64,000 nucleotides of DNA from Candidatus Multivoradales bacterium (GCA_965223155.1 CBDCVR010000013.1:608001-672000), one strand, 5' to 3'. Positions 1 to 47,529 are shown, numbered from the stretch's first letter. Made by a program: numbers and translations. Notes: generated by a model from the sequence alone, not told the origin.

Positions 1-223
1 GACCGGTGCCGCTTTCGGCGTATTCGGTGAGCCATCCCGTGTCCAGGCCGGCCAGGAGCTTGCCGTGCACGTGACTGCGGCCCACCGACCGTTGGATGGA
101 GTCGCCCACCAGTACCGCCGCCGGCAGGGCGATCGCCACGTTGAGAAGCCAAACCAGCCCCACCAGGCCCGGGGCCCGCAGCATGCGGCGTAGGCCCTCG
201 GCAATCGCGGATCGGCCGCTCAT
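1..223 (-). CDS. Hypothetical membrane protein, N-terminal part (runs off the window edge)
   Basis: Hand translation from ATG at 223: MSGRSAIAEGLRRMLRAPGLVGLVWLLNVAIALPAAVLVG..., a hydrophobic segment, open to the edge; directly downstream of the M1 peptidase. Confidence 0.65.
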   Translation of the reverse strand, partial: MSGRSAIAEGLRRMLRAPGLVGLVWLLNVAIALPAAVLVGDSIQRSVGRSHVHGKLLAGLDTGWLTEYAESGTG

Positions 224-3727: not shown

Positions 3728-6700
3728 ATGTTCAAGCTAAGTCGGCTCGAGCTTTCGGGCTTCAAATCCTTCGTGGATCCCGCCGTCCTCGACTTCTCGG
3801 GCGGGATCAACGCCATCGTCGGCCCCAACGGTTGCGGCAAGAGCAACGTCTGCGACGCGGTCTGCTGGGTGCTGGGCGAGCGCAGCGCCAAGAATCTGCG
3901 CGGCGAGACCATGGAGGACGTCATCTTCAGCGGTTCGGCTTCGCGCAAGCGGCTGGGGTTGGCGGACGTCCAACTCAGCCTGACCACCGAGAGCTCGTAC
4001 GAGCACGCCGAAGACGGCCGCATCACCATCGGCCGGCGGGTGCACCGGGACGGCGAAAGCCAGTACCTCTTGAACGGCAAGACCGTGCGCCTCAAGGACA
4101 TCCGGGATCTGCTCATGGACACCGGCCTGGGGATCCGGGCCTATTCGGTGATCGAGCAAGGCAAGATCGGAATGATCCTGTCGGGCAAGCCGGTCGAGCG
4201 CCGGCGTCTGCTCGAAGAAGCGGCCGGTATCACCCGCTACAAGGAGCGGCGGCGCATCGCCGAGATCAAGCTCGAGGACGCCCGCGACAATCTCTTCAGA
4301 TTGGACGACATTCTGGCCGAGGTCGAGCGCAGCCTGCGCTCGCTCAAGCGCCAGGCGGGCGCGGCACGGAGGTTCCACGAGCGGCGCGAGGCCTACCGTG
4401 AGCTTTGGCAGGAAGTCCTTCTGGGCCGCTGGAGCCGGCTCTCCGGCAGCCTGGCGGAGCTCGAGACCGGGCTGCGGTCGGCGACCGACCGCGAGGCCGA
4501 GAGCACCGCTTCGGTCCAGAAGCTCGAGGCCGAGCTCCTCGCCGGCCGCGAGGAGTTGGATCGATTGACCAAGGAGCTGGCCGAGCAACACCGCCTGGAA
4601 GCCGAGCAGGCCGCGCGCATCGAGGGCCGGCAGGAGTTTCTGGTCGGGTCCAGATCGCGCCAGACCGAGATCGACGAACGGGTCAAAGCCGGCGACCGAG
4701 CGGCGCTCGCGCGGGCGGGCAAGATCGAGACCCTGGAAGGCGCCCGCGCCTCCCTCGAGACCAAGTTGGCCGAGCTGGGAGGCGAGCACGACACCGCCGC
4801 CAGCGAGGTTTCCGAGGACGAGGTCAAGCTGGACGAGGTCATGCGCGCGGCCGGCGAGGCCGAGAGCCGGCTCGAGGCCCTCCGGGGACGCCTGCTCCAG
4901 TCGATCGGGGACGTCAACGGCCTCCGCAACCAGCTCCACCGAGAACAGGTCGAGCTCGAGAAGGGCGAGCTGCGCGAGCGCCATCTGGCCGAAGAGCTCG
5001 CCGCCAAGATCCAAGCCGTCACCGAGACGACGGCCGAGTTGGAAACCGCCGAGGCCCGCCACCGCGAGCTGGCCGCCGCCGTCGCCGAAGCCGAGGACTC
5101 CCTGGCCGAGCTCGGCGCCGACGTCGAGCGCCGCCGAGCCGCCCTCGCCGAGCTGGAGTCCCGGCGAAGCGAAGCGCTCGACGAGCTGCGCGCTCTCGAG
5201 ACCGATCGGGACGTGCTGGAAGAGCTGGAGAGGGTCCAGGCCGCCCGCCGGCGCGGTCTCACCGAGGTCTTCGAGCGGGCCGACCTGGGCCATCCCAGCT
5301 TCCTGGCCGATCGCCTCGCCGTCCCCGAAGGCTGGGAGCGGTCGCTGGACCTCTACTTGGGCGCCCTGGCCGACGCCATCGTAGTCGGCGACACCGCCAC
5401 CGCGGCCGTCGCGGTCAACGCTCTGGCTGATAGCGACATGACCGCCGGCCTCATCTCCACCGACGGCGAACGCCCGCGGCCGGTCGAGATCGACGACGCC
5501 AGCGTCGGGGCCAGCCTGGCCGAGGCTCTGGAAGTCGAGCCCGCGCTCGCCGCCTTCCTGCCCCCGGCTTTCCTGGTCGAGTCACCCGACGACGCCAGGC
5601 GTCTTGCCGCCGCCCATCCCGGAGTCTCGTTCATTACCCGCGATCGCTTCTGGGCCGAGGCCGGGGTCCTCCACATCCAGGGCCGCAACGCCCGCCCGGG
5701 CACCCTCACCCGAGAGCACGACCTCAACGAGATCCGCGACCGCATCCAGGAGCTGACCTTCCGCCGGGACGATCTGGACGCCGACATTGCCCAGCAGCGG
5801 GGCCGCTTGACCGAGGCCGAGGCAACGCACGGCAGCCAAGCCGACAAGCTGGCCGAGACCCGGCGCGAGCTGGCCGTGGCCGAGGCCCGCCGCGACGATC
5901 TCTCGGGGCTCGGCCAGCGCTTGACGGTCGAGCACGACACCCTCGGCACCGAGAGCACCGAGATTGGCACCGAGCTGGGCCTCCTCCGGGACCGGTCTCG
6001 CCGCCTGGAACGAGATCTGGAGCGGGCCCAGGAGCTGCACAGCACCCTGGAGGGAGACTTCGACCGGGCGCAACAGGACTACGATCGCTCCCGAACGGAG
6101 CGCGAATCGACCAAGACTTCGGGCGCCAGCCGCCGCGGCCGGCTCGAGCTCATCAGTCACCGCGTCGAATCCGTGCGGAGCGATCTGGACCGCATCGGCC
6201 GGGACCTGGAGGAAGCGCGGCACGCCGACCGCACCTGGACCGACGACAAGACCCGGCTCGAAACGCGCAAGTCCGATCTGGCAACCGCGATGACCACCGC
6301 CGAAGAGGAGCTCAAGGAGGCCTTGGAGCGGCGGGAGCAGGCCCAAGACGCGGCCATCCGGCAGCAGGAGACGATCGACGCGCACCGTTCCTCCCTGGAC
6401 GAGTTCGCCGGCCGGCTGGAAGCCGGCCGCACCCACCGGGACGAATTGCGCGAAGAGATCGCGGCCCTACGGGTGCGCGAAGCGGCGGCCAACCAGGAAG
6501 CTACCCATCTGCGCGAGCAGTACCGCGAGGACTTCGAGGACGAGCTCCCCGCGGCCGCGCCGGAAGCGCCCGAGGACCTGGAGCGGCTCGAGATGGACGC
6601 GACCCGCGTCAAGGAGAAGCTGGACCGTACCGGTCCGGTCAACCTGCTGGCGGCCGACGAGTACGCCGAGCAGGAGGAGCGCCACGGGTTCCTATCGACC

Positions 6701-13722: not shown

Positions 13723-15378
13723 TCAGCGATTCAGTAGCTGGCGGAGGAGAAAGAGCGCCCGGCGCACGTCGCCATCGGGCTGCACCCGCACCAGGCGCCG
13801 TCCGGCGGCGACCAGCGCGGCGGCGTCGCCGTCGGCCTGGGCGGCCACGATCTTGCCCAGGGATTCCTCCCGGCCCGGAACCAGAAGATCGGCCATCGGC
13901 GCCGGCTGGATCTGCAAGAACACGCCCTGGCTCCCGCCGCCCTTGTGAAGCTGCCCGCTCGAGTGCAGGTAGCGCGGGCCGTAGCAGGCGGTCGTGGGCC
14001 GCCCCGACAGCTCGTGGACCCGGCGCTGGAGCTCGGCAAGCTCCCGGTCCATCTCCACCGACGGCGGGGCGTAGGTGAGGATGGCGAAATAGTCGCCTTC
14101 TCCGGCCGATCCCAGCCAATCGGTTAGAGCGACGGACAGGCGATCCCGGTCGCCGGTCGAGATCGATTCAGGTAGCGGCTCGGATTCCTGGTCGGCGGGG
14201 TCCGGACCGTCCAAGACCCGCTGGGTCGCCTGCTTGGCGGCCTCGACGTCGGGCTGATCGAAGGGATTGACCTCCAGCACGGTCGCGGCCATCGCCACCG
14301 CAAGCTGCCAGCGAAAGAACTCGCCGCCAAGATCGTAGGGATCGCGCAGACGGACGGAGATCGTCGGGTGCCCTCGCTCCTCCAGCTCCTGGAGCCAGCC
14401 GGCCAGGGCCTCCGGGGGGTCGCCGAGAGTCAGACTGACGAAGATCCGGTCGTCGCCGTAGGCATCGGCTGCGGCCCTGGGTTCCCCGACGATCGGCACG
14501 AGGCCCTTGCCCTCCTTGCCCAGGCTCTCGGCCACGAGCTGGTCCAGCCACAGGGGAAACGCAGTCAGGGGCGGCGTTGCCAGCAGGGTCAGCTTGTCCC
14601 GGCCCGCCAGCGCCAGCTCGCCCAAAGCGGCACCTAGCTCCAACCCCGGGCTGGTCAGGTTGCGGAGGCACTCGTCCTCCATGGCGTGCGCCCTGCGCAG
14701 GATCTGTTCGATATCCAGGCCGCTCAGCGCGGCCGGCAGCAAGCCGAACACCGAGAGGGCGCTGAAACGCCCGCCCACGGTCTCGTTGCCGCGGTAGACG
14801 CCGCGGAACTCGTGCTCAACGGCAAAGTCCTCGAGCGGCGATCCGGCGTCGGTGATCGCCAGAAAGCTCTCCCCCGGCCGGCTCGACCAACGGCCGAAAC
14901 AATGCAGCAGCACGTCGGCCAGCGCCCGCGTCTCGAGTGTGCTCCCGGACTTGCTCGACACCACGCACTGCCAGCCGTCGCGGCGAACCTGGTCCACTAG
15001 CGGCCGGACCGAGTCGGGATGGGTCGTGTCCAGAACCGTCAACCGCCGCTCCGCCGGTGGTCGAAAGCAATGCTCCAGAACCAGGGGTGCCAAGGACGAG
15101 CCGCCCATGCCTACCAGAATCGTGTGCTCCACGCCCCGCGACCGAGCCTCTGCGGCGGCCTCGTGAAAGCCATCCAGCTCGAGCCAAATGTCCTGGGGCA
15201 GATCCAGCCAACCCAGCCGCGAGCTCACGGCCTCGGCGTCGGCATAAGGCCACAGGCTCGGATCCTTGGCGCGCAAGCAGCCGCGAACGTCGGCCGCCTC
15301 CCAAGCGGCCAAGCGTTCCTTCACCGCTTCGCCGAAAGAGCCCAGGCGAAGCCACTGCTCCGGAACCGTCGCGCGCAT
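13723..15378 (-). CDS. pgi: Glucose-6-phosphate isomerase (type usually found fused to transaldolase)
   Basis: LGWL, GMGGSSL, SSKSGSTLET, VGGRFSALS, QLVAESLGK, NPFDQPDVEAAK, GPRYLHSSGQLHKGG. Confidence 0.88.
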   Translation of the reverse strand: MRATVPEQWLRLGSFGEAVKERLAAWEAADVRGCLRAKDPSLWPYADAEAVSSRLGWLDLPQDIWLELDGFHEAAAEARSRGVEHTILVGMGGSSLAPLVLEHCFRPPAERRLTVLDTTHPDSVRPLVDQVRRDGWQCVVSSKSGSTLETRALADVLLHCFGRWSSRPGESFLAITDAGSPLEDFAVEHEFRGVYRGNETVGGRFSALSVFGLLPAALSGLDIEQILRRAHAMEDECLRNLTSPGLELGAALGELALAGRDKLTLLATPPLTAFPLWLDQLVAESLGKEGKGLVPIVGEPRAAADAYGDDRIFVSLTLGDPPEALAGWLQELEERGHPTISVRLRDPYDLGGEFFRWQLAVAMAATVLEVNPFDQPDVEAAKQATQRVLDGPDPADQESEPLPESISTGDRDRLSVALTDWLGSAGEGDYFAILTYAPPSVEMDRELAELQRRVHELSGRPTTACYGPRYLHSSGQLHKGGGSQGVFLQIQPAPMADLLVPGREESLGKIVAAQADGDAAALVAAGRRLVRVQPDGDVRRALFLLRQLLNR

Positions 15379-29266: not shown

Positions 29267-29866
29267 ATGCCGAAATTCGAATCCCACCCGAACGCCGCCA
29301 GCGGGACCCATGGCTTCGCCGCGGCTCTCCTGCTCGCCCTGGCCTCGCTCCTGCTTCCCACTTCTCTGCCGGCCCGCGCCGAGCTCGCTCAGCAGGCTCA
29401 ACCCAGCGAACTCGATCCCAGCGCCAGCACGCCCCTCGGAGCGCTCGTGGTCCTGGTCGTCCGGCATGCGGAAAAGGCCGGCACCGACGCCGACCCGGCT
29501 CTGACCGCCTCCGGGCGCGAGCGCGCCGAGCGCCTGAGCCGCTTGACCTCCGCGTCCGGCGTCAACGCCGTCTACTGCACCCAGTTTCTGCGAACCCGGC
29601 AGACGGTCGAGCCGATCGCCTCCGCGCAGGACCTAGAACCGATCGAGGTCGATGCCCACGACACGCCCGGTCTCGTCCGGAAGCTGTTGGCACACCCGCC
29701 CGGAGACGTGGTGGTCGTCGCCGGCCACAGCAACACTGTCCCCGACATCGTCGCCGGCCTCGGCGCGCCACATCCTGGCCCGATTGACGAATCCGACTAC
29801 GACAATCTCTTCATCGTCACGGTCTTCGAGAACGGCAACGCCGGCACCCTCCGCCTTCAGTACTAG
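29267..29866 (+). CDS. Histidine phosphatase (phosphoglycerate mutase/SixA-like) with signal peptide
   Basis: VRHAEK, LTASGRERA, RTRQT, GHSNT; N-terminal hydrophobic segment ending ARA; -10 TAGCAT 7 nt before the ATG. Confidence 0.88.
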   Translation: MPKFESHPNAASGTHGFAAALLLALASLLLPTSLPARAELAQQAQPSELDPSASTPLGALVVLVVRHAEKAGTDADPALTASGRERAERLSRLTSASGVNAVYCTQFLRTRQTVEPIASAQDLEPIEVDAHDTPGLVRKLLAHPPGDVVVVAGHSNTVPDIVAGLGAPHPGPIDESDYDNLFIVTVFENGNAGTLRLQY

Positions 29867-29969
29867 TGTCGGGGCCACGATCTGGCTAGGTCTCGGACCT
29901 GAGCTAGACGACCGCGGTATGGGTGTTGCACCGGCAACCGGCACGGGCAATGAGCCCGCGAGCGATCCC

Positions 29970-32057
29970 ATGCAGCTCTTCTTGCCAACCAACGCCTCCA
30001 CCCCCCCTCGCCGGCGCGCGACCGGGCTGGGGGGGCTCGCGCCGTTGCTTCTCGCCGCCGGCGTCCTCTCGGCTCCGGCCGGAGCCATCCGAGCGCCCGG
30101 ACCGGGCGCTCCGGAGCAGGTTCCGCGCCTTCTCGTCGAAGCCGCGGAGGGGCGGAATCGAGCCCGTCTCGAGCGCGCGCTCGAATCCGGCGAGCTCGGC
30201 GCCGGGACGATCCCGATTCAGGCAACCCTCGACGCCACGCCCGCGGCCGGCGGGCTTTCGATCCAAGTCTCAGTGCGGCCCGACGCCCCGGCGGGCCCCT
30301 CGGCGGTCTGGCTCCTCAGTGCCGCGGCGGCGTCACCGGACGCCAGGCCCGCCCTCGTCCACCGCACCGTGACCTGGAGCCCATCGGTCTCCCTGGCGGG
30401 AGCCCCACAGACGCCGACCGGGGGGTTCCGGACCTCGCTTGTTCTGCCGCTGATGGACGATCTTCAGGAGGCAGCGGTCGCCCTGGAGCACCTGGACTCG
30501 GGGCGCTGGGGCGCCGCCTGGATCTCGGAAGCCGCCACGGAAGGCCAGGGTGACGAGCTCAGCGCCGATCTGGAGATACTCGGCCCGGCCGAGAGACCGG
30601 AGCCGGTAGACCCGGAGACTCCTCTCGCCGGCCGGGCTCCCGCAGCCGGAAGCTCGCACCCGGGCGACCCGTCTTCGAACCAGCTCGCGGTGGTCACCAT
30701 CCTGCCCCCTCGAGACTCGCCCGCCGTCGGCCGCCAGCGCATCCGGACGGTGGCATCGCTCGACGGCATCCGCAAGGTTCTCTTCTTTCTGGACGGCCGG
30801 CTGGTGGCGACCGACTCCCGGTCGCCGTTCGCCGCCACGCTCGACTTCGGCCCCGAGGCGGCCGCTCATCTGGTCGAGGTCCGGGCACTCGGCTTCGACG
30901 ATCTGCTGCTCGGAACCAGTAGCCTGCGGGTCAACCCCGGGATCGAGGCCTTCGCCGTCTCCCTCGCCGTTGCCGAGGTCGAGAGCGGGCTCGAAGTCGC
31001 GGCCCGCGTGACGGTCCCGCCCTGGAGCGAGCTCGCCTCGGTCGAGTTCTTCGCCGGCTCCAACACTCTCGGGCCGCAAAGGGAGCCGCCCTTCTCGGCC
31101 CTCCTTCCGGAAGGCTTGGACCCGTCCACGGTGATCCGGGTGCTTGCCCGGTTTGCCGACGGCACCGACCGGGAGGACGCGGGACTGCTTCGGGACCTGC
31201 TCCGCGACGACACCTTCAGCGAACGGGTCGAGGTCAACCTGGTGGAAGTCTACGCGACGGTTACCGACCGGGACGGCCGGCCGGTCCCGGACCTCGAGGC
31301 GTCGGCCTTCCGCCTTCGACTCGGCAAGCGCCCGGTCCAGATCGAGCGCTTCGGAGCCGCTGGGGACCTGCCACTGTCACTCGGCCTCATCGTGGACAGC
31401 TCCGAGAGCATGGATTCCCTGATGACGGCAACCCGGCAGGCCGCCGCCCAGTTCCTGGCCTCGTCGCTAGGCTCGGAGGACCGCGCCTTCCTGGTCGATT
31501 TCGACAGCCGGCCGAGACTTGCCCGGAGCATGACCGGTGAGCTGGCTACCCTGCTCGAGGGCCTGGGCCGCCTCCAGGTCGGCGGCAACACCGCCATCTA
31601 CGACGCGGTCGCGTTCTCGCTCGCCCAGTTCGATTCGGGCGCCGGACGCCGCGCCCTGGTGCTCTTGACCGACGGACGTGACTACGGCAGCCGGATCGAT
31701 AGCAGCCGGTGCCTGGCCGAGGCGCGCAAGCTGGGGGTACCCGTCTACGTCATCGTTCTGGCCAACCAGCACGCGTATCTCCCGGGCGCCGGACTCCCCG
31801 GCCGCAAGACTCCGAAAGCGCCGCCCGCGGACGCCTTCCTCGAGGCCTTCGCCGAGAAGAGCGGCGGCCGCCTGATCTCGGTTACCGATGTCGCCGCCCT
31901 GGCGGCCGTCTACCAGGACATCGGCGCCGAGCTCCGCAGCCAGTACTTCTTGGGCTTCACAACTCCCGAGCGCCTGAACCAAGACGCGATCGAGTCGCTA
32001 CGCCTCGAGGTCGCGGGCCGCGGCTTCGAAGTGCGCAGCTCGGTGCTGGGCCGCTAG
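29970..32057 (+). CDS. VWA domain protein (Acidobacterial type) with Ig-like region, exported
   Basis: VEVNLVEVYATVTDRDG, MIDAS VDSSESM, TAIYDA, LLTDGRD, SQYFLGF; start uncertain. Confidence 0.85.
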   Translation: MQLFLPTNASTPPRRRATGLGGLAPLLLAAGVLSAPAGAIRAPGPGAPEQVPRLLVEAAEGRNRARLERALESGELGAGTIPIQATLDATPAAGGLSIQVSVRPDAPAGPSAVWLLSAAAASPDARPALVHRTVTWSPSVSLAGAPQTPTGGFRTSLVLPLMDDLQEAAVALEHLDSGRWGAAWISEAATEGQGDELSADLEILGPAERPEPVDPETPLAGRAPAAGSSHPGDPSSNQLAVVTILPPRDSPAVGRQRIRTVASLDGIRKVLFFLDGRLVATDSRSPFAATLDFGPEAAAHLVEVRALGFDDLLLGTSSLRVNPGIEAFAVSLAVAEVESGLEVAARVTVPPWSELASVEFFAGSNTLGPQREPPFSALLPEGLDPSTVIRVLARFADGTDREDAGLLRDLLRDDTFSERVEVNLVEVYATVTDRDGRPVPDLEASAFRLRLGKRPVQIERFGAAGDLPLSLGLIVDSSESMDSLMTATRQAAAQFLASSLGSEDRAFLVDFDSRPRLARSMTGELATLLEGLGRLQVGGNTAIYDAVAFSLAQFDSGAGRRALVLLTDGRDYGSRIDSSRCLAEARKLGVPVYVIVLANQHAYLPGAGLPGRKTPKAPPADAFLEAFAEKSGGRLISVTDVAALAAVYQDIGAELRSQYFLGFTTPERLNQDAIESLRLEVAGRGFEVRSSVLGR

Positions 32058-32077: not shown

Positions 32078-32683
32078 CTACTTCGTCGAAGGTCGGGGCC
32101 GTTCCCCCTCGTCCGGCTCGGCCTCGAGCTCGACCCCGAGCCCGTCGGCGATCCGGTTGACGAAGGCGAAGTAGGCCACGATCGAGCAGATGTCGTGAAT
32201 CGCGCGCTCGTCCCAGCCGGCCGCCCTGAGCCGGGACACGTCCCCGGCGCCAACGGTCCACGGCTCGCGCGTGAGCACGAGCGCGTAGTCCAGCATCGCG
32301 GCCTCGGCCTCGGTCACCGGGGCCCCGATCGCATCGGTCGGATCGGGCGGATCGGGCGGATCGGGCGGATCGGGCGAGAGAGCCTCGATCAGCCGGTCCT
32401 GATCTCGTTCCGAGACCTTCTTCGCCGTCAGCAGCCTACGGAGACCCGCCCCGTGATGGTGCAGTCAGTAGTGGCAGGCGTTCGCGGCCGAGACCGCCAC
32501 CGCCAGCATCTCGCGCTGAATCCGGGTCAGCGGCCCGGGGCCGTACATGAGCTGCCGGTACAAGTCGTAGTGCTGCCGCATGACTCGGCCGTTCACGGAG
32601 TGGATGCGTAGGATGTTGTCGGTGTCCGGGACGCGCTCCTCGGCGGGCAGTCGATCCAGATCGCGATAGTCGATATAGGCCAT
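32078..32683 (-). CDS. AhpD/carboxymuconolactone-decarboxylase-like peroxidase-related protein, probable selenoprotein (UGA at codon 73)
   Basis: QREMLAVAVSAANACHY-UGA-LHHHG continues in frame to YFAFVNRIADGLGV; CxxU motif; SECIS-like hairpin. Confidence 0.85.
32341..32376 (+). repeat. 9-bp tandem repeat (GATCGGGCG)x4 encoding a Pro-Asp-Pro tract
   Basis: Four exact copies plus a degenerate copy CATCGGTCG immediately to the left. Confidence 0.95.
32438..32454 (-). promoter_or_regulatory. Putative bacterial SECIS hairpin
   Basis: ACGGGG-CGGGU-CUCCGU stem-loop starting at the 11th nt after the in-frame UGA, with G in the apical loop. Confidence 0.6.
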
Positions 32684-32695: not shown

Positions 32696-34147
32696 CTACG
32701 ACGATCGGCCGGCGGGAGCGTGGGCGCCACGCAGCTCGGTGACCGCCGCTCGGATGTCCTCCAAACACAGCTCCATCCGGTCAAGGTGGGTGCGAAAGTT
32801 GAGCACGCAGATCCGCAGGACAAAGCGGCCGTCCACCAGGGTCTCGGTCAAGAAGACACGCTTGCGCTCGTTGATCCTCCGCAACAGCTCGCGGTTGAGC
32901 TCGTTCTCCTCCTCCAGGCTGGCGCCGGCCGAACGCAGTCGAAAGCTCACCAGCGAGAGCTCGGGCTCTCCCAGGGTCTCGACGCCCTCGACGGCTTCGA
33001 GCTCATGGTACGCCCACTCGGCCAGATCCAGCTTTTCGTCCAGAACCGCCCGAAAGCAGTCGAAGCCGTAGAGCTTGAGCGGCAGCCAGACCCGGAGACC
33101 CCGGAAGTCTCGCGACAGCTCGGGCGAGATCTCACAGAAATCCACCAGCCGTTCGTCGTCCTGGAGCGGTGGCATGTAGTCGGCCTGGACCGTGTGGGCG
33201 CGCCGGAGCGCCGCCTGCTCGCGTACCAGCAGGCACCCCGTGCCGTAGGGCAGGAACAGCCCCTTGTGCGGATCCAGGGTCACCGAGTCGGCGCGCGCGA
33301 GTCCGGTCATACGCTTCCGGCCGCGTTCGGTCAGGGCGAAAAAGCCGCCGTAGGCCGCGTCCACGTGGAACCAGAGCCCTTCGCGGGCGGCGACGTCGGC
33401 CAGCGCCTCGAGATCGTCGATCGCCCCGGTGTTGGTGGTGCCGGCGCTGCCCACGAGGAGGAACGGCGCTCGGCCCGCGCGCCGATCCTCGACCAGGGTC
33501 CGTTCGAGAGCGTCGATCCGCATCCGCTGGCGGCCGTCCACCGGAATCGAGCGCACGGCCTCGGCCGGAAACCCGGCCAGAGCCGCCGCCCGCGTGACCG
33601 AGTGATGGACCTGGCTCGAGACGTAGAGGGATCCGGCCAGGAAATTCTCCGGCAGCCGCTCCCGCCTGGCGGTGAAAACGGCGCTGAAATTGGCGACCGA
33701 GCCGCCCGACGACAGGAAGCCCCCGGATCCCGGCGGCAGGCCGAGAAGCTCGCAGAACCAGCGAATGACGTTGATCTCGAGCTGCGCCAGTCCGGGTGCC
33801 GCGGTCCACACCGTGACGTACCGGTTGATCCCGTTGGCCACCAGGTCGGCGACCGCCGACTCGAACAGCCCACCCCCGGGGATGTACGCCAGGAACCCAG
33901 GTCCGGCGTTGTTGAAGCTGGTGGGCAGCGCGCGCTCGAAGACGAGATCCATGAGCTCGGCAAACGGGGCGCCACTTGCCGGAGGCCCTTCTTCCAGCGA
34001 GCGCGCCAGCTCGTGCGCGCCGGAGATCTCGAATGCCGGCGCCTCGGGCAAAGCCTCGAGGTGGCGAACGAGCCTCTCGGTCGCCTCCGCCACCATGGTC
34101 CGCATCGCCGCCGCCGACGGCTCCATGCGGTGCCGTTTCGGGTCCAT
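32696..34147 (-). CDS. PLP-dependent group II amino-acid decarboxylase (aromatic-L-amino-acid decarboxylase-like)
   Basis: SGGSVANF, HHSV, SAGTTNTGAID, HVDAAYGG, DPHK PLP lysine, ELSRDFRGL. Confidence 0.9.
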   Translation of the reverse strand: MDPKRHRMEPSAAAMRTMVAEATERLVRHLEALPEAPAFEISGAHELARSLEEGPPASGAPFAELMDLVFERALPTSFNNAGPGFLAYIPGGGLFESAVADLVANGINRYVTVWTAAPGLAQLEINVIRWFCELLGLPPGSGGFLSSGGSVANFSAVFTARRERLPENFLAGSLYVSSQVHHSVTRAAALAGFPAEAVRSIPVDGRQRMRIDALERTLVEDRRAGRAPFLLVGSAGTTNTGAIDDLEALADVAAREGLWFHVDAAYGGFFALTERGRKRMTGLARADSVTLDPHKGLFLPYGTGCLLVREQAALRRAHTVQADYMPPLQDDERLVDFCEISPELSRDFRGLRVWLPLKLYGFDCFRAVLDEKLDLAEWAYHELEAVEGVETLGEPELSLVSFRLRSAGASLEEENELNRELLRRINERKRVFLTETLVDGRFVLRICVLNFRTHLDRMELCLEDIRAAVTELRGAHAPAGRSS

Positions 34148-34224: not shown

Positions 34225-35382
34225 CTAGGCGAACGCCGCCCGGAAGCGTTCACCCACCTGGCGCAGCCGCTCCACCGGCTCATTCGAAAAGACGAGACGC
34301 AGGTAGCCCGCGCTGCGCTCGGACCCCCAACCGGTCATCGGCGTGGCCGCGACCTTGCCCCGCTCCAGCAAGCGGTCCGAGGCCTCGCGGCCGGACAGGC
34401 CGAAGCTCGTGGCGTCCAGGAGCAGAGACCAGCCGCCCTCCGGCCGAATCGCCGCGTAGGGCGCGAGCTGGTCCAGCAGCACGTCCCGCCGGCGTTCCAG
34501 CTCGGCCGTCGCTGCGCGGATCCCAGGCCGCTCCGAGCTCAAGGCCACGGCTGCGCCCGCGAGAGCGATGCCGACGTTGGCGACGACGTTCGAGATCGAC
34601 ACCAGGCCGACGTCGTCGATGATCCCTGCCGGCGCCACGATCCAGCCCACCCGCCAGCCGATCATCCGGTACTCCTTGGACACCGAGCCGATGGTGATGG
34701 TGCGCTCGGCCATTCCCTGGCAAGAGGCAGGATGGATAGGCGCCAACCCGTCGAAGAGCAAACGCTCCATGGCGCTGTCGTAGAGCAACCAGGCGCCGGC
34801 GGCACGGCAGGCCCCGGCGACCGCCTCCCAGTCCTCTCGGTCCAGGACCGCCCCCGACGGCATCGCCGGGCTCATCATCAGGAAGGCCCGGGTGCGTCCT
34901 GACACGGCACCGTCGAGGCTCTCGCGGTCCAGGCGCCAGCGGCCGCCGCGCACCTCGCAGCGAACGAATCGCGGCACCCCTCCCGCCAGTCGCACCCGAT
35001 TGACCAGGCCGATGTAGATCGGGTCGGGCAGCACCACCTCGTCTCCGGGCTCCAGAATCGCCAGCAGCACGTCCAGAATACCGTTCAGGCCGCCGGCCGC
35101 GAGAATCGTCGATCGACGCCAGTCGTAGGCCACCCCGGAGCTCTCCGAGACGATTCGGCAGGCCTGGCGCCGCAGCTCGTCGGTTCCGAGAAACGGCAGA
35201 TAGCTGTTGGCGTCGTCCCGGCCGACGGCCTCGCGCGTGGCTTCCACGACCCCGGCCGGCAAGGGCAGATCGGTATCCAGGTTCTCCAGACGAAGCACCT
35301 CCGGATCGGCGGCCCCGTCGGCCAAGGCGCCGAGCCGGTCGACTCCGATGCCGGCCATCCCGGCCAGGCGGGAAACCGGCAT
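34225..35382 (-). CDS. PLP-dependent aminotransferase class I/II
   Basis: PGDEVVLPDP, YDSAME, GSVSKEYRMIGWRVGW, YLRLVF. Confidence 0.88.
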   Translation of the reverse strand: MPVSRLAGMAGIGVDRLGALADGAADPEVLRLENLDTDLPLPAGVVEATREAVGRDDANSYLPFLGTDELRRQACRIVSESSGVAYDWRRSTILAAGGLNGILDVLLAILEPGDEVVLPDPIYIGLVNRVRLAGGVPRFVRCEVRGGRWRLDRESLDGAVSGRTRAFLMMSPAMPSGAVLDREDWEAVAGACRAAGAWLLYDSAMERLLFDGLAPIHPASCQGMAERTITIGSVSKEYRMIGWRVGWIVAPAGIIDDVGLVSISNVVANVGIALAGAAVALSSERPGIRAATAELERRRDVLLDQLAPYAAIRPEGGWSLLLDATSFGLSGREASDRLLERGKVAATPMTGWGSERSAGYLRLVFSNEPVERLRQVGERFRAAFA

Positions 35383-37590: not shown

Positions 37591-38052
37591 CTAGCTCTCG
37601 AAGTCGTCCGCGGATTCGGATCGCGGCCCGTGTGCGGGGTCTGGTCCGCTCTCTCGAGCCGATCCGGCCTGTAACGCGACTCGCCGCTCCCACCAGTTCC
37701 GGTGCTCGTCCAGACGTCGCCGCACCGTCCCCAGCGGCGTCTCCACGCTCCGGAGCCGGCGCCGAGCCACGATCACCAGCACCCAGGACGCCAGCAGAAA
37801 GACGCCCAGCACCGACACCGCCGCCCCCCAGCGCGGCAGCCACAGAGCCGCCACCTCGACCAGCACATAGGCCAGAGCGCCAATCGCCCAGAACAGCACG
37901 AAGAGAGCCACGGCCAGCAGCAGCAGGGCGCGGACCAGCACTCGGCTCGAGCCCTGGAGCTCCGAGTTGAGGGCGCCCAGCTCGGCCCGCAGCAGCTCGA
38001 CGCCCGCCTGGCCTAGAGGGGCCAGCGCCGAGGTCCAGCGCAGCGGTTTCAT
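37591..38052 (-). CDS. Two-TM holin-like (DUF1469/YqjE-type) membrane protein
   Basis: LLRAEL...EL amphipathic N-terminus followed by two TM helices; ATGA overlap with the VWA gene. Confidence 0.7.
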   Translation of the reverse strand: MKPLRWTSALAPLGQAGVELLRAELGALNSELQGSSRVLVRALLLLAVALFVLFWAIGALAYVLVEVAALWLPRWGAAVSVLGVFLLASWVLVIVARRRLRSVETPLGTVRRRLDEHRNWWERRVALQAGSARESGPDPAHGPRSESADDFES

Positions 38053-39803
38053 CGGCCACCGGTGGCGCCGGTCCGGGCGGTGCTACCGGCCCGAATCGAC
38101 TGGGATACCACCGACTGAGTGGCTCCGACCTCGTCCCGCACGGCCACGGCCAGCCGGTTCTCTCCCGCCCGCATCTGGAGCTCCACCTGGTAGATGTACG
38201 CCTTTTCCAACGCGGTCTCGATCTCGGCGTTGGGAATCCGGATGTCGAGCGGAACCTCCTGCACGCCCGAGGTCCTGCCTTCCCCATCCATGGCCGCGAA
38301 ATAGACCTTGACCCGGCCGTGGAAAAACTCGTCCCGAGGCACCAGCGACAGCTTGCCCAGGGGCACGAAAACGGCGATCGGCATCAAGAAGTGGCCGCCG
38401 TCTCCGGGACTGCCCTGGCCGACCTTGACGGCGATCGACAGCGGATTGCGCTCGAAGCCGTACATCAAGGTCGAAGCGGTCATGTCCGCGACTCGATCCG
38501 ACCGGGACTTGTCCCGGTAGCCGTGGCGGTAGCGCAGGCGGACCCCCTTGCGCTTCTCTTTGAGGCGAACCTCGATGCGGTGATACCGCCCGTCGCCGGC
38601 GTGGGAAGGCTGGTAGCCGAGTGAATAGTAGGTCCCGAAGTCCCGGGCCACCCGGGTCAGGCCCTTGCGCGGATCGTTGGTGTTGTAGATCGCCTGGCCA
38701 CCGGTGCGGTCGGCCATGAAGATCAAAGGTGCCTGCAAGTTGTGGAAGTAAACGCTGTCGATGAGCGTACCGAGGCCCGGCGTCTGGACGCCCTGCTGGT
38801 CGGCCGAAACCGTGCTCGCGACTCGCAGGCCCGCCGCGTCGATCGTGTAGAAGCTGATCCGGTTGGTATTGGCCTGAGCCGCCAGCTCTTCGAAGGTGCG
38901 CTGGGCGTTGAAGTCATGGGCCCGCATCAGAACCGAAGAGTCGTTGAACTTCTGCTGCATGGCGTAGAAGAGATCCTCGCCCTGCATCATCTCGATGCCG
39001 TCGCTGACGTAGAGAATCGCCTTGCGGCCCTCGATGCCTCCCAGCGACGCCACCATCTCCTTGAGCGCCGTGACCGAGAAGCTCATGTCGTTGTACATCG
39101 ACTCGGCGTACTGCGTCACCCGCCACCGCACCTCGTCGATCGACTCGGCCTCGTCGATGTCGCGCAGGAGGTCGCGCCGGTCGGAGTCTTTGTGGACCGC
39201 GTGCCCGGTCAGGTTCTCAAGCTCGAAGAGCGACCGGGCGATGATCGCCGGATCGTTGGTGAACGGGTGCCGGATCTTCAAGGACCGGTCGTAGGAAACC
39301 AGCATGACCTGGTCGACCGCCTCGGTGTTTTCCCGCAAGAAGTCGCGAATGCTCCGGAAGACCCGGTTGCGGTTGAACGGCCGGATGTTGAAGTTGTCCA
39401 CGTACACCACCAGGTACAGCTTCTGTTCCTCGGGAATGAGCTCCATCGGCGGCGCGGTACCGGGCACCAGAGGCTCGGGCGCGTCAACCTCGGGCGTGAC
39501 CGGAACCTGGGGCGCGCCGCCCTCGGTCACGTAGAAGTTGGTGATCGCGACCGGGCGCCGGTCTTCCAGGATCTCGAAGTCGTCCTTGGTCAGACCGGTA
39601 ATCGGCTCGCCTTTCTTGTCGGTCACGTAGACCTCGACGTTGACGACGTTGACGTCCACCGTCTCGAAGAAAAACTCGTCGGACTCTTGCTGGGCGTCCT
39701 CACCCTCCTGGGCGACCAGCACGGCGGCGCCCGACCCGAAGGCCAGAAGCAGCCCCAGGGCGAGCATCGGAATCACGGAAGCGCGAAATTGGACCATCAT
39801 CAC
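38049..39803 (-). CDS. VWA domain protein (Acidobacterial type), exported
   Basis: VDVNVVNVEVYVTDKKG, GRKAILYVSDG, ADRTGG, YYSLGY; signal peptide; degenerate MIDAS. Confidence 0.88.
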   Translation of the reverse strand: MMMVQFRASVIPMLALGLLLAFGSGAAVLVAQEGEDAQQESDEFFFETVDVNVVNVEVYVTDKKGEPITGLTKDDFEILEDRRPVAITNFYVTEGGAPQVPVTPEVDAPEPLVPGTAPPMELIPEEQKLYLVVYVDNFNIRPFNRNRVFRSIRDFLRENTEAVDQVMLVSYDRSLKIRHPFTNDPAIIARSLFELENLTGHAVHKDSDRRDLLRDIDEAESIDEVRWRVTQYAESMYNDMSFSVTALKEMVASLGGIEGRKAILYVSDGIEMMQGEDLFYAMQQKFNDSSVLMRAHDFNAQRTFEELAAQANTNRISFYTIDAAGLRVASTVSADQQGVQTPGLGTLIDSVYFHNLQAPLIFMADRTGGQAIYNTNDPRKGLTRVARDFGTYYSLGYQPSHAGDGRYHRIEVRLKEKRKGVRLRYRHGYRDKSRSDRVADMTASTLMYGFERNPLSIAVKVGQGSPGDGGHFLMPIAVFVPLGKLSLVPRDEFFHGRVKVYFAAMDGEGRTSGVQEVPLDIRIPNAEIETALEKAYIYQVELQMRAGENRLAVAVRDEVGATQSVVSQSIRAGSTARTGATGGR

Positions 39804-39850: not shown

Positions 39851-41614
39851 TCAGGGATCGATGTCGAACCCGGCCGACAGAATTCTACCACTGGCCGGAT
39901 CGTGGACCGCGACGACGCCGGCGTGGGATCGGCGGCGCAGCTCGAGCTCGGTCTCGTAGGTACCGATCTGGCCGGCCTCGGGCTCGGAGGAGAGCTGGAG
40001 ATCCAGCGGAATCACCGGAATCGGCGCCTGATCCCCGTGGTCGTCCTGGACCGCAAGCCGGAGCTCCAGCCGGGCGACGTAGCCGTCGGCGGCCGGCAAG
40101 AACGTGACCTCGTCCAAGGGCACGAGAATCTTGAGGGGCACCGCGATCCTGCGCCGGCTCTTGGTCACCGGGTCGCCGACCTCGATCGCCAGGGTGCTGG
40201 CGGCCGCGGCGTTGCCAAAGAGCAGCGTGCTCTCGACCGCCATCGACACCTCGGACGATCTGGATGAATCCAGGTAGCTGCGGCGGGAGCGAACTCGGAA
40301 GGACGGGTCGCGCAGCACCACCCGGACCTGGTGCCGCGAGTCGTCCTCGGCCTTGGCCGGGCTGAACCCCAGCCAGTAGTACGAGTCGACGTCCCCAGCG
40401 ACGCGCTCGAGTGCCTGGACCCGGCCCTGGTTCAGGATCGCGCGCCCACCGGTCTGGCGGGCCAGGTACGTCAGCGTGGCATGAGCCTGGCCCTCGACCT
40501 CGAAACCGAAGTCCGCCCGCGAGTTGACGTCATCCGGCAGCCGCGCCACCGACGCCTGGCCCGCGAACTCCCGGTCCAGACCGGGCACGTCCACCGGATA
40601 GATCGTGTACCCCAAGAGATTCGCGGTCTCGGTGAGGCGGTTGTAGAGGTTCCTGCCATACGGCCCGCTGCGCTCGAACAGAACCGTGCTGAGCCCTCCC
40701 AGGAGATAGTCCGCGGGGACAAAAGGCCAGCCCCCGGACAGGAGCAGCAGCACCTTCCGCCCCGGAGGCTTCGCGAAGCTCCGAAGCGTGGCCGCGGCCG
40801 CCGCGATCGAACGATTCAACTGGCCGGTCAGCTCGCCGATGTAGGCCCGTTCGTCCGGTCGCAGGTTGCGGTGGAACTCGGAGAATCCCAGCTCCTCCTC
40901 GCGTCCGACTTGCCGGGCGAGGCCGTCGAAAAGGGTGAAATTGGCCCGCTCTCGCTCGACCCGGCGGCGCAGGCCGTGGGCCGGCCGGCCCATGGCGTCC
41001 TGGAAGGCACGCTCCAGCACCGGCTCGAGGTCCGTCCACGAGGTCAGCATGTCGAGGTCCTTGCCGTCGTAGGCAACGACCGCCATGCGGTCCTCGGGCC
41101 GCAAGAACCCGAGGTTGGCGGCCAGCGCCTCCAAGACGCGGTTCCGGTCCGGTTTCAAGCTGAAGAAATCGTCCACGAAGACCAGATAGCTGACTCCGAC
41201 CGGCTCCCCCGGAGCCAGGGACGGCACCGCCGGCGGCGCGGCGGCGGATTCGAGCGCTCCAGGCTCGGCAGCGGGCCTCGCAGCCGGACGAACGATTCCG
41301 TTCCGAATCTCGCTGAAGTAGTCGATACTGACCGCCTCGCCGTCCACCAGAAGCTCGAAGTCGCCCGGTCCGAGGCCACGAATCGGCGTGCCGTCCTTGT
41401 CGGTGACTTGGACTTCGATGTTGATCACGCGGACGTCCAACACCTCGCTGAAGATGCCGGGCATGGCCGAAGGCTGTTCCTGCGCCGCCAGCGCGCCCGC
41501 GCTGACGCCCCCGAGCATCCCGAGAATCCCGACCGCTGCCACCGCCAACCGTGCCGCCCATCCCCGTCCAGAGCCCGCCGTTCGTTGTGCGCGCACCGTC
41601 GTCCTCCTCGTCAT
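39851..41614 (-). CDS. VWA domain protein (Acidobacterial type), exported
   Basis: LDVRVINIEVQVTDKDG, GRKVLLLLSGG, ARQTGG, YYWLGF; paralog of the downstream gene; start set to ATG 41614. Confidence 0.87.
   Translation of the reverse strand: MTRRTTVRAQRTAGSGRGWAARLAVAAVGILGMLGGVSAGALAAQEQPSAMPGIFSEVLDVRVINIEVQVTDKDGTPIRGLGPGDFELLVDGEAVSIDYFSEIRNGIVRPAARPAAEPGALESAAAPPAVPSLAPGEPVGVSYLVFVDDFFSLKPDRNRVLEALAANLGFLRPEDRMAVVAYDGKDLDMLTSWTDLEPVLERAFQDAMGRPAHGLRRRVERERANFTLFDGLARQVGREEELGFSEFHRNLRPDERAYIGELTGQLNRSIAAAAATLRSFAKPPGRKVLLLLSGGWPFVPADYLLGGLSTVLFERSGPYGRNLYNRLTETANLLGYTIYPVDVPGLDREFAGQASVARLPDDVNSRADFGFEVEGQAHATLTYLARQTGGRAILNQGRVQALERVAGDVDSYYWLGFSPAKAEDDSRHQVRVVLRDPSFRVRSRRSYLDSSRSSEVSMAVESTLLFGNAAAASTLAIEVGDPVTKSRRRIAVPLKILVPLDEVTFLPAADGYVARLELRLAVQDDHGDQAPIPVIPLDLQLSSEPEAGQIGTYETELELRRRSHAGVVAVHDPASGRILSAGFDIDP
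39880..39890 (-). promoter_or_regulatory. Putative extended -10 TGGTAGAAT for the 38049-39803 gene
   Basis: Plus-strand ATTCTACCA inside the 3' end of the upstream VWA gene. Confidence 0.45.
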
Positions 41615-46482: not shown

Positions 46483-47529
46483 ATGCTCACCGATACGACG
46501 CGCCGGCGTTACGAGGAGTTCGCGAAGCTCATTCGCGGCCGCTCCATGGCCGGCAAGTGGATGATCGTCACCCACGACAATCCCGACCCGGACTCGATCG
46601 CCTCGGCCGCGGGCCTGGCCAAGCTGCTCAGGCGGGGCTTCCGGCGCCAGGTGACGATTGCCTACGGTGGCATCATCGGACGCGCCGAGAATCAGGAGAT
46701 GGTCAAGGTCTTGGACGTCCGTCTGAGCCACATCCGCCACCTCAACAAGGACAGGTACCGGCATTTCGCCCTGGTCGATACCCAGCCGGGGACCGGCAAC
46801 AACCAGCTCGACGGCATCCGGCCGGACGTGGTCTTCGACCATCACCCGGTCCGCAAGGCGACCCTCGAGGTTCCATTCTTCGACATCCGCACGGAATACG
46901 GCGCCAGCGCCACGATCATCGCCGAGTACCTGGCGGCCGCCGGCTGGGACCTCACCAAGCGCGAAGCCACCGCCTTCGTCTACGCCGTGCGCTCGGAGAC
47001 CCAGGACTTCGGGCGAGAGTTCTCCCCGGCCGACAAACAGCTCTACGACGAGCTCCAACCCCTCGCCGATCCGCGCGCCCTGGCCAAGATCCAGGCGCCG
47101 CGGCTCCCGATCTCGTACTTCCGTACCCTGCACGAAGCCCTCGAGAACCTGCAATCGGCCGGCTCCCTGGTCGTGAGCCACCTGCGGGAGATCGACAATC
47201 CCGACATCGTCCCCGAAATCGCCGATCTGCTGCTGCGGATGCACGGCAAGACGTGGTCGTTTTGCACCGGCGTTCAGGGCGAACGTGTTCACGTCTCCCT
47301 CCGGACGACCAACGCCCGGGCCGATGCCGGACGCCTGATGCGCCGGCTGCTCGGCAGGCGGGGCAAAGGCGGCGGGCACGGCATGATGGCGGGCGGCTGG
47401 ATCGAATGGCCGGGAACGCGCAGCGGTACCCCGGAGGGCCTGCAGGACTATCTCGCCACCCGTCTGGCGCAAATCCTCAAGAAGAAGCCTGGGCGCCTCA
47501 GTCCGCTCAAGCTCAGCAACGGGGCTTGA
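46483..47529 (+). CDS. DHH family phosphoesterase
   Basis: THDNPDPD, VDTQP, FDHH, GASATI, GGGH; start set to ATG 46483. Confidence 0.88.
   Translation: MLTDTTRRRYEEFAKLIRGRSMAGKWMIVTHDNPDPDSIASAAGLAKLLRRGFRRQVTIAYGGIIGRAENQEMVKVLDVRLSHIRHLNKDRYRHFALVDTQPGTGNNQLDGIRPDVVFDHHPVRKATLEVPFFDIRTEYGASATIIAEYLAAAGWDLTKREATAFVYAVRSETQDFGREFSPADKQLYDELQPLADPRALAKIQAPRLPISYFRTLHEALENLQSAGSLVVSHLREIDNPDIVPEIADLLLRMHGKTWSFCTGVQGERVHVSLRTTNARADAGRLMRRLLGRRGKGGGHGMMAGGWIEWPGTRSGTPEGLQDYLATRLAQILKKKPGRLSPLKLSNGA

What the first reader, a model, noticed from the sequence alone, without database searches (positions are those of the whole stretch)
32078..32683. Hidden selenoprotein: AhpD-like gene reads through UGA in a CxxU motif, with a SECIS-like hairpin
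Seen: the two short ORFs (32465-32683 and 32078-32317) are in the same frame. Reading through TGA 32465-32467 gives ...VSAANACHY-U-LHHHGAGLRRLL... with no other stop, for a 201-aa protein. The UGA sits where the second Cys of the AhpD/CMD CxxC(xxH) motif is expected. A stem-loop ACGGGG-CGGGU-CUCCGU starts at the 11th nt after the UGA, with a possible lower stem GCACC/GGCUGC. Known: bacterial SECIS elements lie just 3' of the UGA, and Sec-containing AhpD-like proteins exist. Inference: this organism decodes Sec, and standard pipelines would annotate two fragments.
Basis: partly seen in the sequence, partly recalled or inferred. Interest (0 to 1): 0.75.

Follow-up and report, generated by a model that had tools for sequence, protein, structure and literature searches.

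The report
AhpD-like selenoprotein gene with SECIS hairpin
The two short reading frames are one gene for a small redox enzyme that carries selenocysteine at an in-frame UGA, a real but already well-described kind of bacterial selenoprotein that gene finders routinely cut in two.

Summary
On the minus strand, 32683..32078 is one frame with a single internal stop, TGA at 32467..32465. Read-through gives a 201-aa protein.

It scores above the curated cut-off of NCBIfam TIGR01926, peroxidase-related enzyme of the AhpD/CMD fold. The UGA sits at the second Cys of CxxCxxxH.

Comparison settles it. In the 80 best relatives fetched from 80 species genomes, 80 of 80 have TGA at this codon. A 6-bp hairpin, ACGGRG-CGGGN-CUCCGU, starts at the 11th nt after the UGA. 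It is 90.1% paired, against 29-50% in slid registers, with double changes in 4 of 6 pairs and strong synonymous-codon constraint.

TGA remains an ordinary stop: 20 of 48 window ORFs and 43 of 80 relatives' own genes end in it.

No sel gene or tRNA-Sec lies in the 64 kb, so the machinery is untested.

"AhpD-like protein, TIGR01926/COG2128, CxxU" has been a published selenoprotein family since 2005 (PMC1088965, PMC13188914).

The parts
32078..32683 (-). Complete AhpD-like (TIGR01926, peroxidase-related) selenoprotein gene. ATG at 32683..32681, stop TAG at 32080..32078, 201 codons including one UGA.
   Evidence: The N-terminus MAYIDY matches homologues. The AF2 model is one compact all-helical domain with pLDDT 88.9 and pTM 0.84.
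32465..32467 (-). In-frame UGA, codon 73, inferred selenocysteine (CxxU).
   Evidence: The same codon is TGA in 80 of 80 relatives. It is Cys in 13 of 106 database homologues and in the PDB relatives.
32474..32476 (-). TGC, Cys70, the first residue of the CxxU motif and the inferred resolving Cys.
   Evidence: C70 is nearly invariant in alignment A2.
32453..32455 (-). CAC, His77 of CxxUxxxH. It overlaps the first two nucleotides of the hairpin's 5' arm.
   Evidence: H77 is invariant in A2. It aligns to position 137 of the TIGR00777 ahpD profile (residues 53-83 against profile 113-143).
32510..32512 (-). Glu58 codon, invariant, 12 residues before Cys70. Aligns to position 118 of the ahpD profile.
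   Evidence: E58 invariant. (offset of 60 to the TIGR00777 profile).
32438..32454 (-). SECIS upper hairpin. 5' arm ACGGGG (32454..32449), loop CGGGU (32448..32444), 3' arm CUCCGU (32443..32438). The spacer after the UGA is 10 nt.
   Evidence: 90.1% of cells paired in 81 sequences, 4 of 6 pairs with double changes, 0 of 500 shuffles reaching any measure. Synonymous constraint.
32431..32462 (-). Span of the possible lower stem (GCACC 32462..32458 with GGCUGC 36..31). It forms in the window and brings the structure to -11.7 kcal/mol, but it is not conserved in register.
   Evidence: energy. (43.2% of cells paired in helix 1).
32333..32376 (-). In-frame 9-nt tandem repeat, 4.9 copies, encoding PDPPDPPDPPDP. 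It is a 12-residue insertion in a loop between helices.
   Evidence: Absent from the 29 other full-length homologues in A2. The U-to-motif spacing is 97 here against a modal 77 or 85. pLDDT is 53-69 there.

Best explanation
This is one gene for a 201-residue AhpD-like thiol/selenol oxidoreductase of the 'peroxidase-related enzyme' subfamily TIGR01926/COG2128. Codon 73 is UGA and is decoded as selenocysteine.

Decoding (inferred from the known bacterial pathway). A SECIS hairpin lies inside the coding sequence and starts 11 nt after the UGA. It has a 6-bp stem and a CGGGU loop. It recruits SelB-GTP-Sec-tRNA(Sec) to the ribosome, so the UGA is read through instead of terminating. The same nucleotides also encode H-G-A-G-L-R. 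This double duty explains why their synonymous positions are frozen.

Catalysis (inferred from alignment to AhpD). Sec73 is the nucleophile. It sits in the first turn of helix 71-87 and is activated through His77 and Glu58. It attacks a peroxide or an oxidised partner. It then forms a selenenylsulfide with Cys70, which a thiol reductant resolves.

Shown here: the single frame, family membership, the TGA at the Cys column in all 80 relatives, and hairpin conservation with covariation. Inferred: actual Sec insertion in this organism, the substrate and the reductant.
For: - Single frame, one TGA, coding-type GC3 on both sides.
- TIGR01926 at 108.9 bits against a cut-off of 81.8; PF02627 at 44.2 against 23.
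- PDB relatives 3c1l (1.4e-23), 2oyo, 2pfx, 6k40 and 2prr align CxxC onto CxxU. The AF2 model has pLDDT 88.9 and its best Foldseek hits are the same entries, with TM 0.67-0.73.
- The genome scan was seeded on a C-terminal motif and ranked with a Cys-bearing query, so it was not biased towards TGA. 80 of 80 kept loci have TGA at the aligned codon. Their record titles name Acidobacteriota, Gemmatimonadota, Chloroflexota, Planctomycetota and other phyla.
- TGA is still a stop: 20 of 48 window ORFs and 43 of 80 relatives' own genes end in it.
- Hairpin: 90.1% of cells paired against 29-50% when slid, 4 of 6 pairs with double changes, 0 of 500 shuffles reaching any of five measures. All six pairs form in 58 of 81 sequences. 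A hairpin of at least 4 bp is the MFE of the 17-mer in 76 of 81.
- Synonymous constraint (site counts, background): Arg+9 is CGT in 62 of 81, against 11% CGT among Arg codons elsewhere in the same genes. Gly+5 is GGA or GGG in 63 of 81, against 43%. Leu+8 is CTC in 66 of 81, against 33%. Ala+6 is GCG in 60 of 81, against 38%. The third base of Gly+7, the last loop nucleotide, varies freely (T 35, G 15, C 15, A 10).
- The published bSECIS constraints are a 3-9 nt loop, a 4-16 bp stem, G in the first two loop positions, 16-37 nt spacing and MFE <= -7.5 (PMC13188914). The window has a 5-nt loop, a 6-bp stem, G at loop position 2, 16 nt spacing and -11.7 kcal/mol with the lower stem.
- The family is published as a CxxU selenoprotein.
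Against: - No selA, selB, selD or tRNA-Sec lies in the 64 kb, so this organism's ability to decode Sec is not shown.
- The window RNA alone does not prefer the hairpin. For 71 nt the z-score is -0.37. The hairpin pairs have about 8% ensemble probability, and the upper hairpin alone is -6.6 kcal/mol, weaker than the model's -7.5.
- The lower stem is not conserved.
- RNAalifold recovers only the 4 inner pairs, with a weak consensus energy of -2.23.
- Much of the nucleotide conservation is also demanded by the conserved peptide HHGAGLR.
- No Rfam family matches the region.
- 23 of 81 sequences break at least one of the six pairs.
Confidence: 0.9

Rival explanations
1. Pseudogene or sequencing error. 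A Cys codon TGC mutated or was misread to TGA, leaving two dead fragments of a Cys-type AhpD-like gene.
For: TGC to TGA is a single change. No sel genes lie in the window. The hairpin is not the MFE of the window RNA.
Against: 80 of 80 relatives from different species have TGA at exactly this codon. The downstream 128 codons stay open with GC3 of 0.87 and align to homologues up to residue 187-201. The hairpin with its frozen synonymous sites is intact in the window.
Confidence: 0.02
2. Relic selenoprotein gene. The lineage inherited a true Sec gene, but this organism has lost the Sec machinery, so the gene now terminates at codon 73.
For: The machinery is not visible in the 64 kb. Loss of the Sec trait is described as frequent in bacteria (PMC1794560, title and abstract in the listing).
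Against: The gene shows no decay. There is no frameshift or second stop, the SECIS consensus is intact, and the catalytic E58, C70 and H77 are kept. The only oddity is an in-frame repeat expansion.
Confidence: 0.04
3. UGA is read as another residue without selenium. Either TGA is generally reassigned (code 4 or 25), or Cys or Ser is inserted by a tRNA(Sec)-like opal suppressor (selC* tRNA-Cys with SelB*, or acidobacterial allo-tRNAs).
For: 21 of 106 database relatives are stored with W at this site. selC* tRNA-Cys(UCA) and acidobacterial allo-tRNA suppressors are described (PMC5389517, passages).
Against: TGA ends 20 of 48 window ORFs and 43 of 80 relatives' own genes, so there is no general reassignment. 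The column is Cys in homologues, never Trp or Gly in DNA-verified cases: 0 of 80 loci have TGG. The passages read place selC* in Firmicutes, Thermodesulfobacteria, Nitrospirae and Proteobacteria, not in Acidobacteria, and always together with a full Sec system.
Confidence: 0.03
4. Two separate small genes, 72 aa and 79 aa, that happen to share a frame.
For: Table-11 ORF calling lists them as two ORFs.
Against: The 49 codons between the TGA and GTG 32317 encode the most conserved block of the family, HHGAGLR, with H77 invariant. TIGR01926 and the PDB alignments span both parts. The model is one domain.
Confidence: 0.01

Closest known systems
AhpD-like selenoprotein family (COG2128 / TIGR01926, CxxU). 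First reported from the Sargasso Sea metagenome in 2005, called 'AhpD-like 1' in the GOS analysis of 2008, and listed in a 2026 review.
   Same: Same model (TIGR01926 above cut-off), same CxxU motif, Sec/Cys homologue pairs, and a SECIS hairpin directly 3' of the UGA with G in a small apical loop. Passages read: PMC1088965 (27 sequences, CXXU), PMC2398784 (299 selenoproteins and 902 Cys homologues), PMC13188914 (table row 'AhpD-like protein, TIGR01926, CxxU').
   Different: Nothing essential. This copy has a 12-residue (PDP)4 repeat insertion. Its closest relatives and three TIGR03436 'acidobact_VWFA' neighbours point to Acidobacteriota, rather than the marine plankton or Clostridia and Deltaproteobacteria named in the early papers.
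Cys-type 'uncharacterized peroxidase-related proteins' with solved structures: 3c1l (Mlr4105), 2oyo, 2pfx, 2prr and 6k40 (D. radiodurans AhpD).
   Same: Same fold and length: phmmer 1.4e-23 to 1.8e-14 and Foldseek TM 0.67-0.73. The same N-x-C-x-x-C-x-x-x-H block aligns.
   Different: They carry Cys where the window has UGA, and they have no recoding signal.
Mycobacterium tuberculosis AhpD (TIGR00777; PDB 1knc).
   Same: The catalytic constellation aligns with an offset of 60. E58, C70, U73 and H77 correspond to profile positions 118, 130, 133 and 137. That these are AhpD's Glu118, Cys130, Cys133 and His137, and that Cys133 is the nucleophile, is recalled from the AhpD literature and was not read here.
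   Different: It is not a member: 19.5 bits against a cut-off of 191.95. The structural match is weak, at Foldseek E 0.063 and TM 0.49. No ahpC neighbour is present.
NF041238 AhpD_rel_CFYUT, alkylhydroperoxidase-related (seleno)protein ('hypothetical protein 1' of the Sargasso Sea).
   Same: Also a CxxU AhpD-related selenoprotein.
   Different: A different and longer family (357-position profile). The window protein scores 44.3 bits against a cut-off of 175 and matches only the motif region.

Membership tests
AhpD-like selenoprotein (TIGR01926 / COG2128, CxxU) | Protein scores above the curated cut-off of TIGR01926 | tested here: met
   108.9 bits against 81.8, with two stretches covering both sides of the UGA.
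AhpD-like selenoprotein (TIGR01926 / COG2128, CxxU) | In-frame UGA at the second Cys of the CxxC redox motif, with Cys-containing homologues at that column (Sec/Cys pair) | tested here: met
   C70-H-Y-U73. 13 of 106 homologues have C. PDB relatives have CxxC. 80 of 80 genomic relatives have TGA.
AhpD-like selenoprotein (TIGR01926 / COG2128, CxxU) | Bacterial SECIS directly downstream: loop of 3-9 nt, stem of 4-16 bp, G in the first two loop positions, 16-37 nt from UGA to loop, MFE <= -7.5 (PMC13188914, Fig. 2 legend) | tested here: met
   Loop CGGGU (5 nt, G at position 2), 6-bp stem, 16 nt spacing. Energy is -11.7 kcal/mol with the lower stem but only -6.6 for the upper hairpin alone. Conserved with covariation.
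AhpD-like selenoprotein (TIGR01926 / COG2128, CxxU) | The host genome encodes selA, selB, selC (tRNA-Sec) and selD | not testable with these tools
   None lies in the 64-kb window. The rest of the genome is not available.
AhpD-like selenoprotein (TIGR01926 / COG2128, CxxU) | Selenium is actually incorporated at the UGA | not testable with these tools
   Needs 75Se labelling or mass spectrometry.
Pfam CMD (PF02627) | Score above the gathering threshold | tested here: met
   44.2 bits against 23, residues 40-83.
Canonical AhpD (TIGR00777) | Score above the curated cut-off | tested here: not met
   19.5 bits against 191.95. Only the motif region aligns.
NF041238 AhpD_rel_CFYUT (seleno)protein | Score above the curated cut-off | tested here: not met
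   44.3 bits against 175.

The most novel reading that the evidence does not exclude
The UGA may not be read as selenocysteine in this lineage. Instead a SECIS/SelB-type route could deliver Cys or Ser from a tRNA(Sec)-like opal suppressor, such as a selC*-type tRNA-Cys(UCA) or an acidobacterial allo-tRNA. The conserved hairpin would then direct selenium-independent recoding in a soil or sediment phylum. Nothing in the window excludes this, because no sel or tRNA gene of either kind is visible.
Probability: 0.03. Interest if true: 0.6.

Novelty: new member of a known kind. Interest (0 to 1): 0.15.

Why it matters
For annotation, the locus should be one 201-aa selenoprotein gene, not two hypothetical fragments or a pseudogene. 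The protein collection shows how common the error is. 62 of 106 homologues are stored as post-UGA fragments: 52 start at residue 74 or 75 and 10 start at 76-95. A further 21 carry Trp at the site.

The gene also implies that the source organism, probably an Acidobacteriota member, uses selenocysteine. That is a testable prediction for the rest of its genome.

For biology it adds nothing new in kind. The family, its CxxU motif and its SECIS have been in print since 2005. The function of the TIGR01926 subfamily itself remains uncharacterised.

Tried and rejected
- Unconstrained folding of the window RNA gave no signal: z -0.37 for 71 nt. For 45 nt the MFE is a different structure at -12.3, against -11.7 for the proposed one. 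Thermodynamics alone cannot support or reject the SECIS here, so I relied on comparison.
RNAalifold kept only the 4 inner pairs of the upper stem.
- Rfam gave nothing relevant. There was no match at gathering scores in the window apart from one tRNA. At E <= 10 on 32380..32520 there were only two chance miRNA hits.
- tRNA-Sec: ARAGORN found none in the window. A local ARAGORN run found none among 13 tRNAs in the 80 loci.
- sel genes: NCBIfam on 48 crudely called window ORFs gave no SelA, SelB or SelD.
- Other selenoprotein genes in the window: a scan for in-frame TGA with coding-like composition on both sides returned 4 sites. They were this gene, one ordinary same-frame gene junction (13723..13725) and two antisense artefacts (47527..47529 +, 5582..5584 -). 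An earlier, stricter scan missed even this gene and was discarded.
- Conserved neighbourhood: the window's decarboxylase, aminotransferase, VWA, TPR, amidase and ORF 27907 proteins were compared by tblastn with the 80 loci. There was one hit in one locus, 7.7 kb away, so there is no conserved operon to lean on for function.
- Not done: searches of viral contigs and metagenome contigs (closed), a 'shorter' protein search for N-terminal 72-aa fragments, and DNA of the Cys-type homologues. The last would have given a direct control for the hairpin's synonymous constraint.

Full report
**1. What is in the sequence**

On the minus strand an ATG at 32683..32681 opens a frame that runs to TAG at 32080..32078. 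The only interruption is one TGA at 32467..32465. Table-11 ORF calling splits it into a 72-aa and a 79-aa ORF in the same frame.

Reading the TGA through gives 201 residues with ...VSAANAC70-H-Y-U73-LHHH77GAGLRRLL.... Codon-position GC content is that of a coding frame on both sides. GC3 is 0.89 before the TGA and 0.87 after it. It is 0.76 in the 147 nt that no start codon covers.

**2. What the protein is**

Pfam gives CMD (PF02627, 2e-11, 44.2 bits against a cut-off of 23). NCBIfam gives TIGR01926 'peroxidase-related enzyme' at 108.9 bits against a cut-off of 81.8. It matches in two stretches, one on either side of the UGA.

Two related models are not reached:
- Canonical AhpD (TIGR00777): 19.5 bits against 191.95.
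- The other AhpD-related selenoprotein model NF041238: 44.3 bits against 175.

Six solved structures match by sequence, led by 3c1l (1.4e-23), 2oyo, 2pfx, 6k40 and 2prr. In the two alignments printed (3c1l, 2oyo) the CxxC lies over the window's CxxU.

An AlphaFold2 model of the read-through protein, built with alignment A2, is one compact all-helical domain. Mean pLDDT is 88.9 and pTM is 0.84. Confidence is low only in residues of about 101-120 and in the C-terminal tail. The CxxU sits at the start of helix 71-87. Foldseek returns the same PDB entries with TM 0.67-0.73. M. tuberculosis AhpD matches only weakly (E 0.063, TM 0.49).

In a 30-sequence alignment E58, S65, N68 and H77 are invariant and C70 is nearly invariant. 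The TIGR00777 match aligns residues 53-83 to profile positions 113-143. This puts E58, C70, U73 and H77 on positions 118, 130, 133 and 137. From my own recall of the AhpD literature, not read here, these are the Glu-Cys-Cys-His catalytic set of M. tuberculosis AhpD, and the second Cys is the nucleophile.

**3. Is the TGA a recoded codon or a defect?**

*Protein database (106 homologues; sorted).*
- 13 span the motif with Cys at column 73.
- 21 span it with Trp.
- 2 span it with Ser.
- 52 are fragments of 110-150 aa that begin at query residue 74 or 75, the codon right after the UGA.
- 10 begin at residues 76-95.
- 8 are misaligned or otherwise unusable.

The fragments are what a gene caller leaves when it stops at an in-frame TGA. 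The Trp forms are what it leaves when it reads the TGA through as Trp.

*DNA.* One scan of 185,579 species genomes was seeded on the C-terminal motif [ASG]Y[FY][AN][FY][VI]NR[IML][AV] and ranked by tblastn with the Cys-bearing query. It confirmed 579 relatives and kept the best 80, at 44-65% identity. By their record titles these come from Acidobacteriota, Gemmatimonadota, Chloroflexota, Planctomycetota and several other phyla.

In 80 of 80 the codon aligned to U73 is TGA, within N-x-C-x-x-U-x-x-x-H. The ranking penalises a stop against Cys, so this result is not an artefact of selection. The other 499 confirmed relatives were not returned and stay unexamined.

TGA is not reassigned in general. 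It ends 20 of 48 crudely called window ORFs; 28 end in TAG and none in TAA. It ends 43 of the 80 relatives' own AhpD-like genes.

**4. The hairpin**

The 81 sequences align without gaps from 9 nt before the TGA to 45 nt after it.

- It is paired in 90.1% of cells.
- 4 of its 6 pairs show changes on both sides, such as G-C to C-G or A-U.
- None of 500 column shuffles reaches the observed value on any of five measures.
- Sliding the 3' arm by 1-3 columns drops pairing to 29-50%.
- All six pairs form in 58 of 81 sequences.
- A hairpin of at least 4 bp is the MFE of the 17-mer in 76 of 81.

*Synonymous sites.* The stem lies over the conserved peptide H-G-A-G-L-R, so amino-acid conservation alone would keep much of it. 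The synonymous positions separate the two causes. Site counts are and the background, from the rest of the same 81 genes, is.

| Codon | Observed | Background |
|---|---|---|
| Arg +9 | CGT in 62 of 81 | CGT is 11% of Arg codons |
| Gly +5 | GGA or GGG in 63 of 81 | 43% of Gly codons |
| Leu +8 | CTC in 66 of 81 | 33% of Leu codons |
| Ala +6 | GCG in 60 of 81 | 38% of Ala codons |

The third base of Arg +9 pairs with A23. The third base of Gly +5 pairs with the U of Leu +8, and A or G both pair. The third base of Gly +7, the last loop nucleotide, is free (T 35, G 15, C 15, A 10). The three loop G's are at least 90% conserved.

*Fit to the published model.* The constraints are a 3-9 nt loop, a 4-16 bp stem, G in the first two loop positions, 16-37 nt between UGA and loop, and MFE <= -7.5 kcal/mol (PMC13188914, Fig. 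2 legend, read as a passage). The window has a 5-nt loop CGGGU, 6 bp, G at loop position 2 and 16 nt of spacing. Its energy is -11.7 kcal/mol when the lower stem is included, and -6.6 for the upper hairpin alone.

*Against.*
- The window RNA does not prefer this fold on its own.
- The lower stem GCACC/GGCUGC is not conserved (43.2% paired).
- RNAalifold keeps only four pairs.
- No Rfam family matches.

**5. Machinery and context**

The window holds no tRNA-Sec. ARAGORN finds two tRNAs, one of them doubtful, and Rfam finds one tRNA. No SelA, SelB or SelD appears among the 48 ORFs scanned with NCBIfam. No other gene has a convincing in-frame TGA. So the Sec-decoding ability of this organism is inferred, not shown.

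Three TIGR03436 'acidobact_VWFA' proteins and the nearest relatives point to Acidobacteriota. A 2006 survey credited that phylum with 4 selenoproteins in 3 families (PMC1794560, table passage).

The gene starts 12 nt after a PLP-dependent decarboxylase (32699..34147), which itself follows an aminotransferase (34228..35382). This neighbourhood is not shared by the relatives: one distant hit in 80 loci. It therefore says nothing about function.

**6. Mechanism**

The best-supported account is standard bacterial Sec recoding. SelB bound to Sec-tRNA(Sec) recognises the hairpin 11 nt after the UGA and delivers Sec to the A site. This produces a 201-aa AhpD-fold oxidoreductase.

Sec73 is then the attacking nucleophile, assisted by His77 and Glu58. 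Cys70 resolves the intermediate through a selenenylsulfide. The oxidant and the reductant are unknown for the whole TIGR01926 subfamily.

Rivals and my weights are in the Rival explanations section: nonsense mutation or sequencing error, relic gene after loss of the machinery, non-Sec read-through, and two separate genes. Together I give them about 0.1.

**7. Comparison with what is known**

- 'AhpD-like protein', COG2128, redox motif CXXU, was reported as a new selenoprotein family with 27 sequences in the Sargasso Sea metagenome, with a predicted SECIS drawn for it (PMC1088965; passages read).
- 'AhpD-like 1' had 299 selenoproteins and 902 Cys homologues in the GOS data (PMC2398784; passage).
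- A 2026 review tabulates 'AhpD-like protein, TIGR01926, CxxU' (PMC13188914; passage).
- A 2026 database paper uses the AhpD-like family as its browsing example. It also states that selenoprotein genes are routinely truncated or missed in annotation (PMC13326102; passages).

The window's gene meets every sequence-level criterion of that family. It is one more member.

**8. Verdict**

This is a new member of a known kind.

The value is in annotation: merge the two ORFs, mark U73, and expect sel genes elsewhere in the genome. The only peculiarity of this copy is an in-frame 9-nt tandem repeat, 32333..32376 with 4.9 copies. It inserts PDPPDPPDPPDP into a poorly modelled loop.

Noticed in passing
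window 32333-32376 (minus-strand gene): A 9-nt tandem repeat with 4.9 copies and 97% matches. It is in frame and encodes PDPPDPPDPPDP inside the AhpD-like gene. It lengthens the loop between helices by 12 residues compared with the closest relatives. Only L005 has a short PDPPDP there, and only L039 has a longer spacer.
   Followed up: partly
whole window (48 crude ORFs): Stop-codon usage is 28 TAG, 20 TGA and 0 TAA. From recall, TAG is unusually frequent for a 68.6% G+C genome. The ORF set was chosen only by length and GC3, so the count is rough.
   Followed up: no
window 29652-32054 (+), 38052-39803 (-), 39854-41821 (-): Three paralogous large proteins each carry the TIGR03436 'acidobact_VWFA' domain (132.9, 213.4 and 138.3 bits). 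One ends 21 nt from the stop of the selenoprotein gene, convergently.
   Followed up: no
window 51615-51713 (-): ARAGORN calls a 99-nt 'tRNA-Ile (gat)' inside the long CinA-like ORF 50947-52806. Rfam at gathering score does not confirm it. It is probably a false positive, or the ORF start is too far upstream, since the CinA match begins at residue 203.
   Followed up: no
protein collection, P0002-P0107: 21 homologues are stored with Trp at the Sec position, and 62 are stored as fragments beginning at or shortly after it. This is systematic mis-annotation of the family. P0007 and P0010 have Ser at the Sec column. P0008 has Ser in place of the first Cys (SxxC).
   Followed up: partly
window 41822-42830 and 58246-59643: Two stretches of 1.0 and 1.4 kb hold no ORF that passes the length and GC3 filter. 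They were not examined further.
   Followed up: no
L001-L080, columns 23-39 of alignment A3: The SECIS hairpin sequence ACGGRGCGGGNCUCCGU is almost identical across relatives whose record titles name at least six phyla, while the proteins are only 44-65% identical. Either the combined peptide and RNA constraint is very strong, or the gene has moved horizontally. No tree was built.
   Followed up: no
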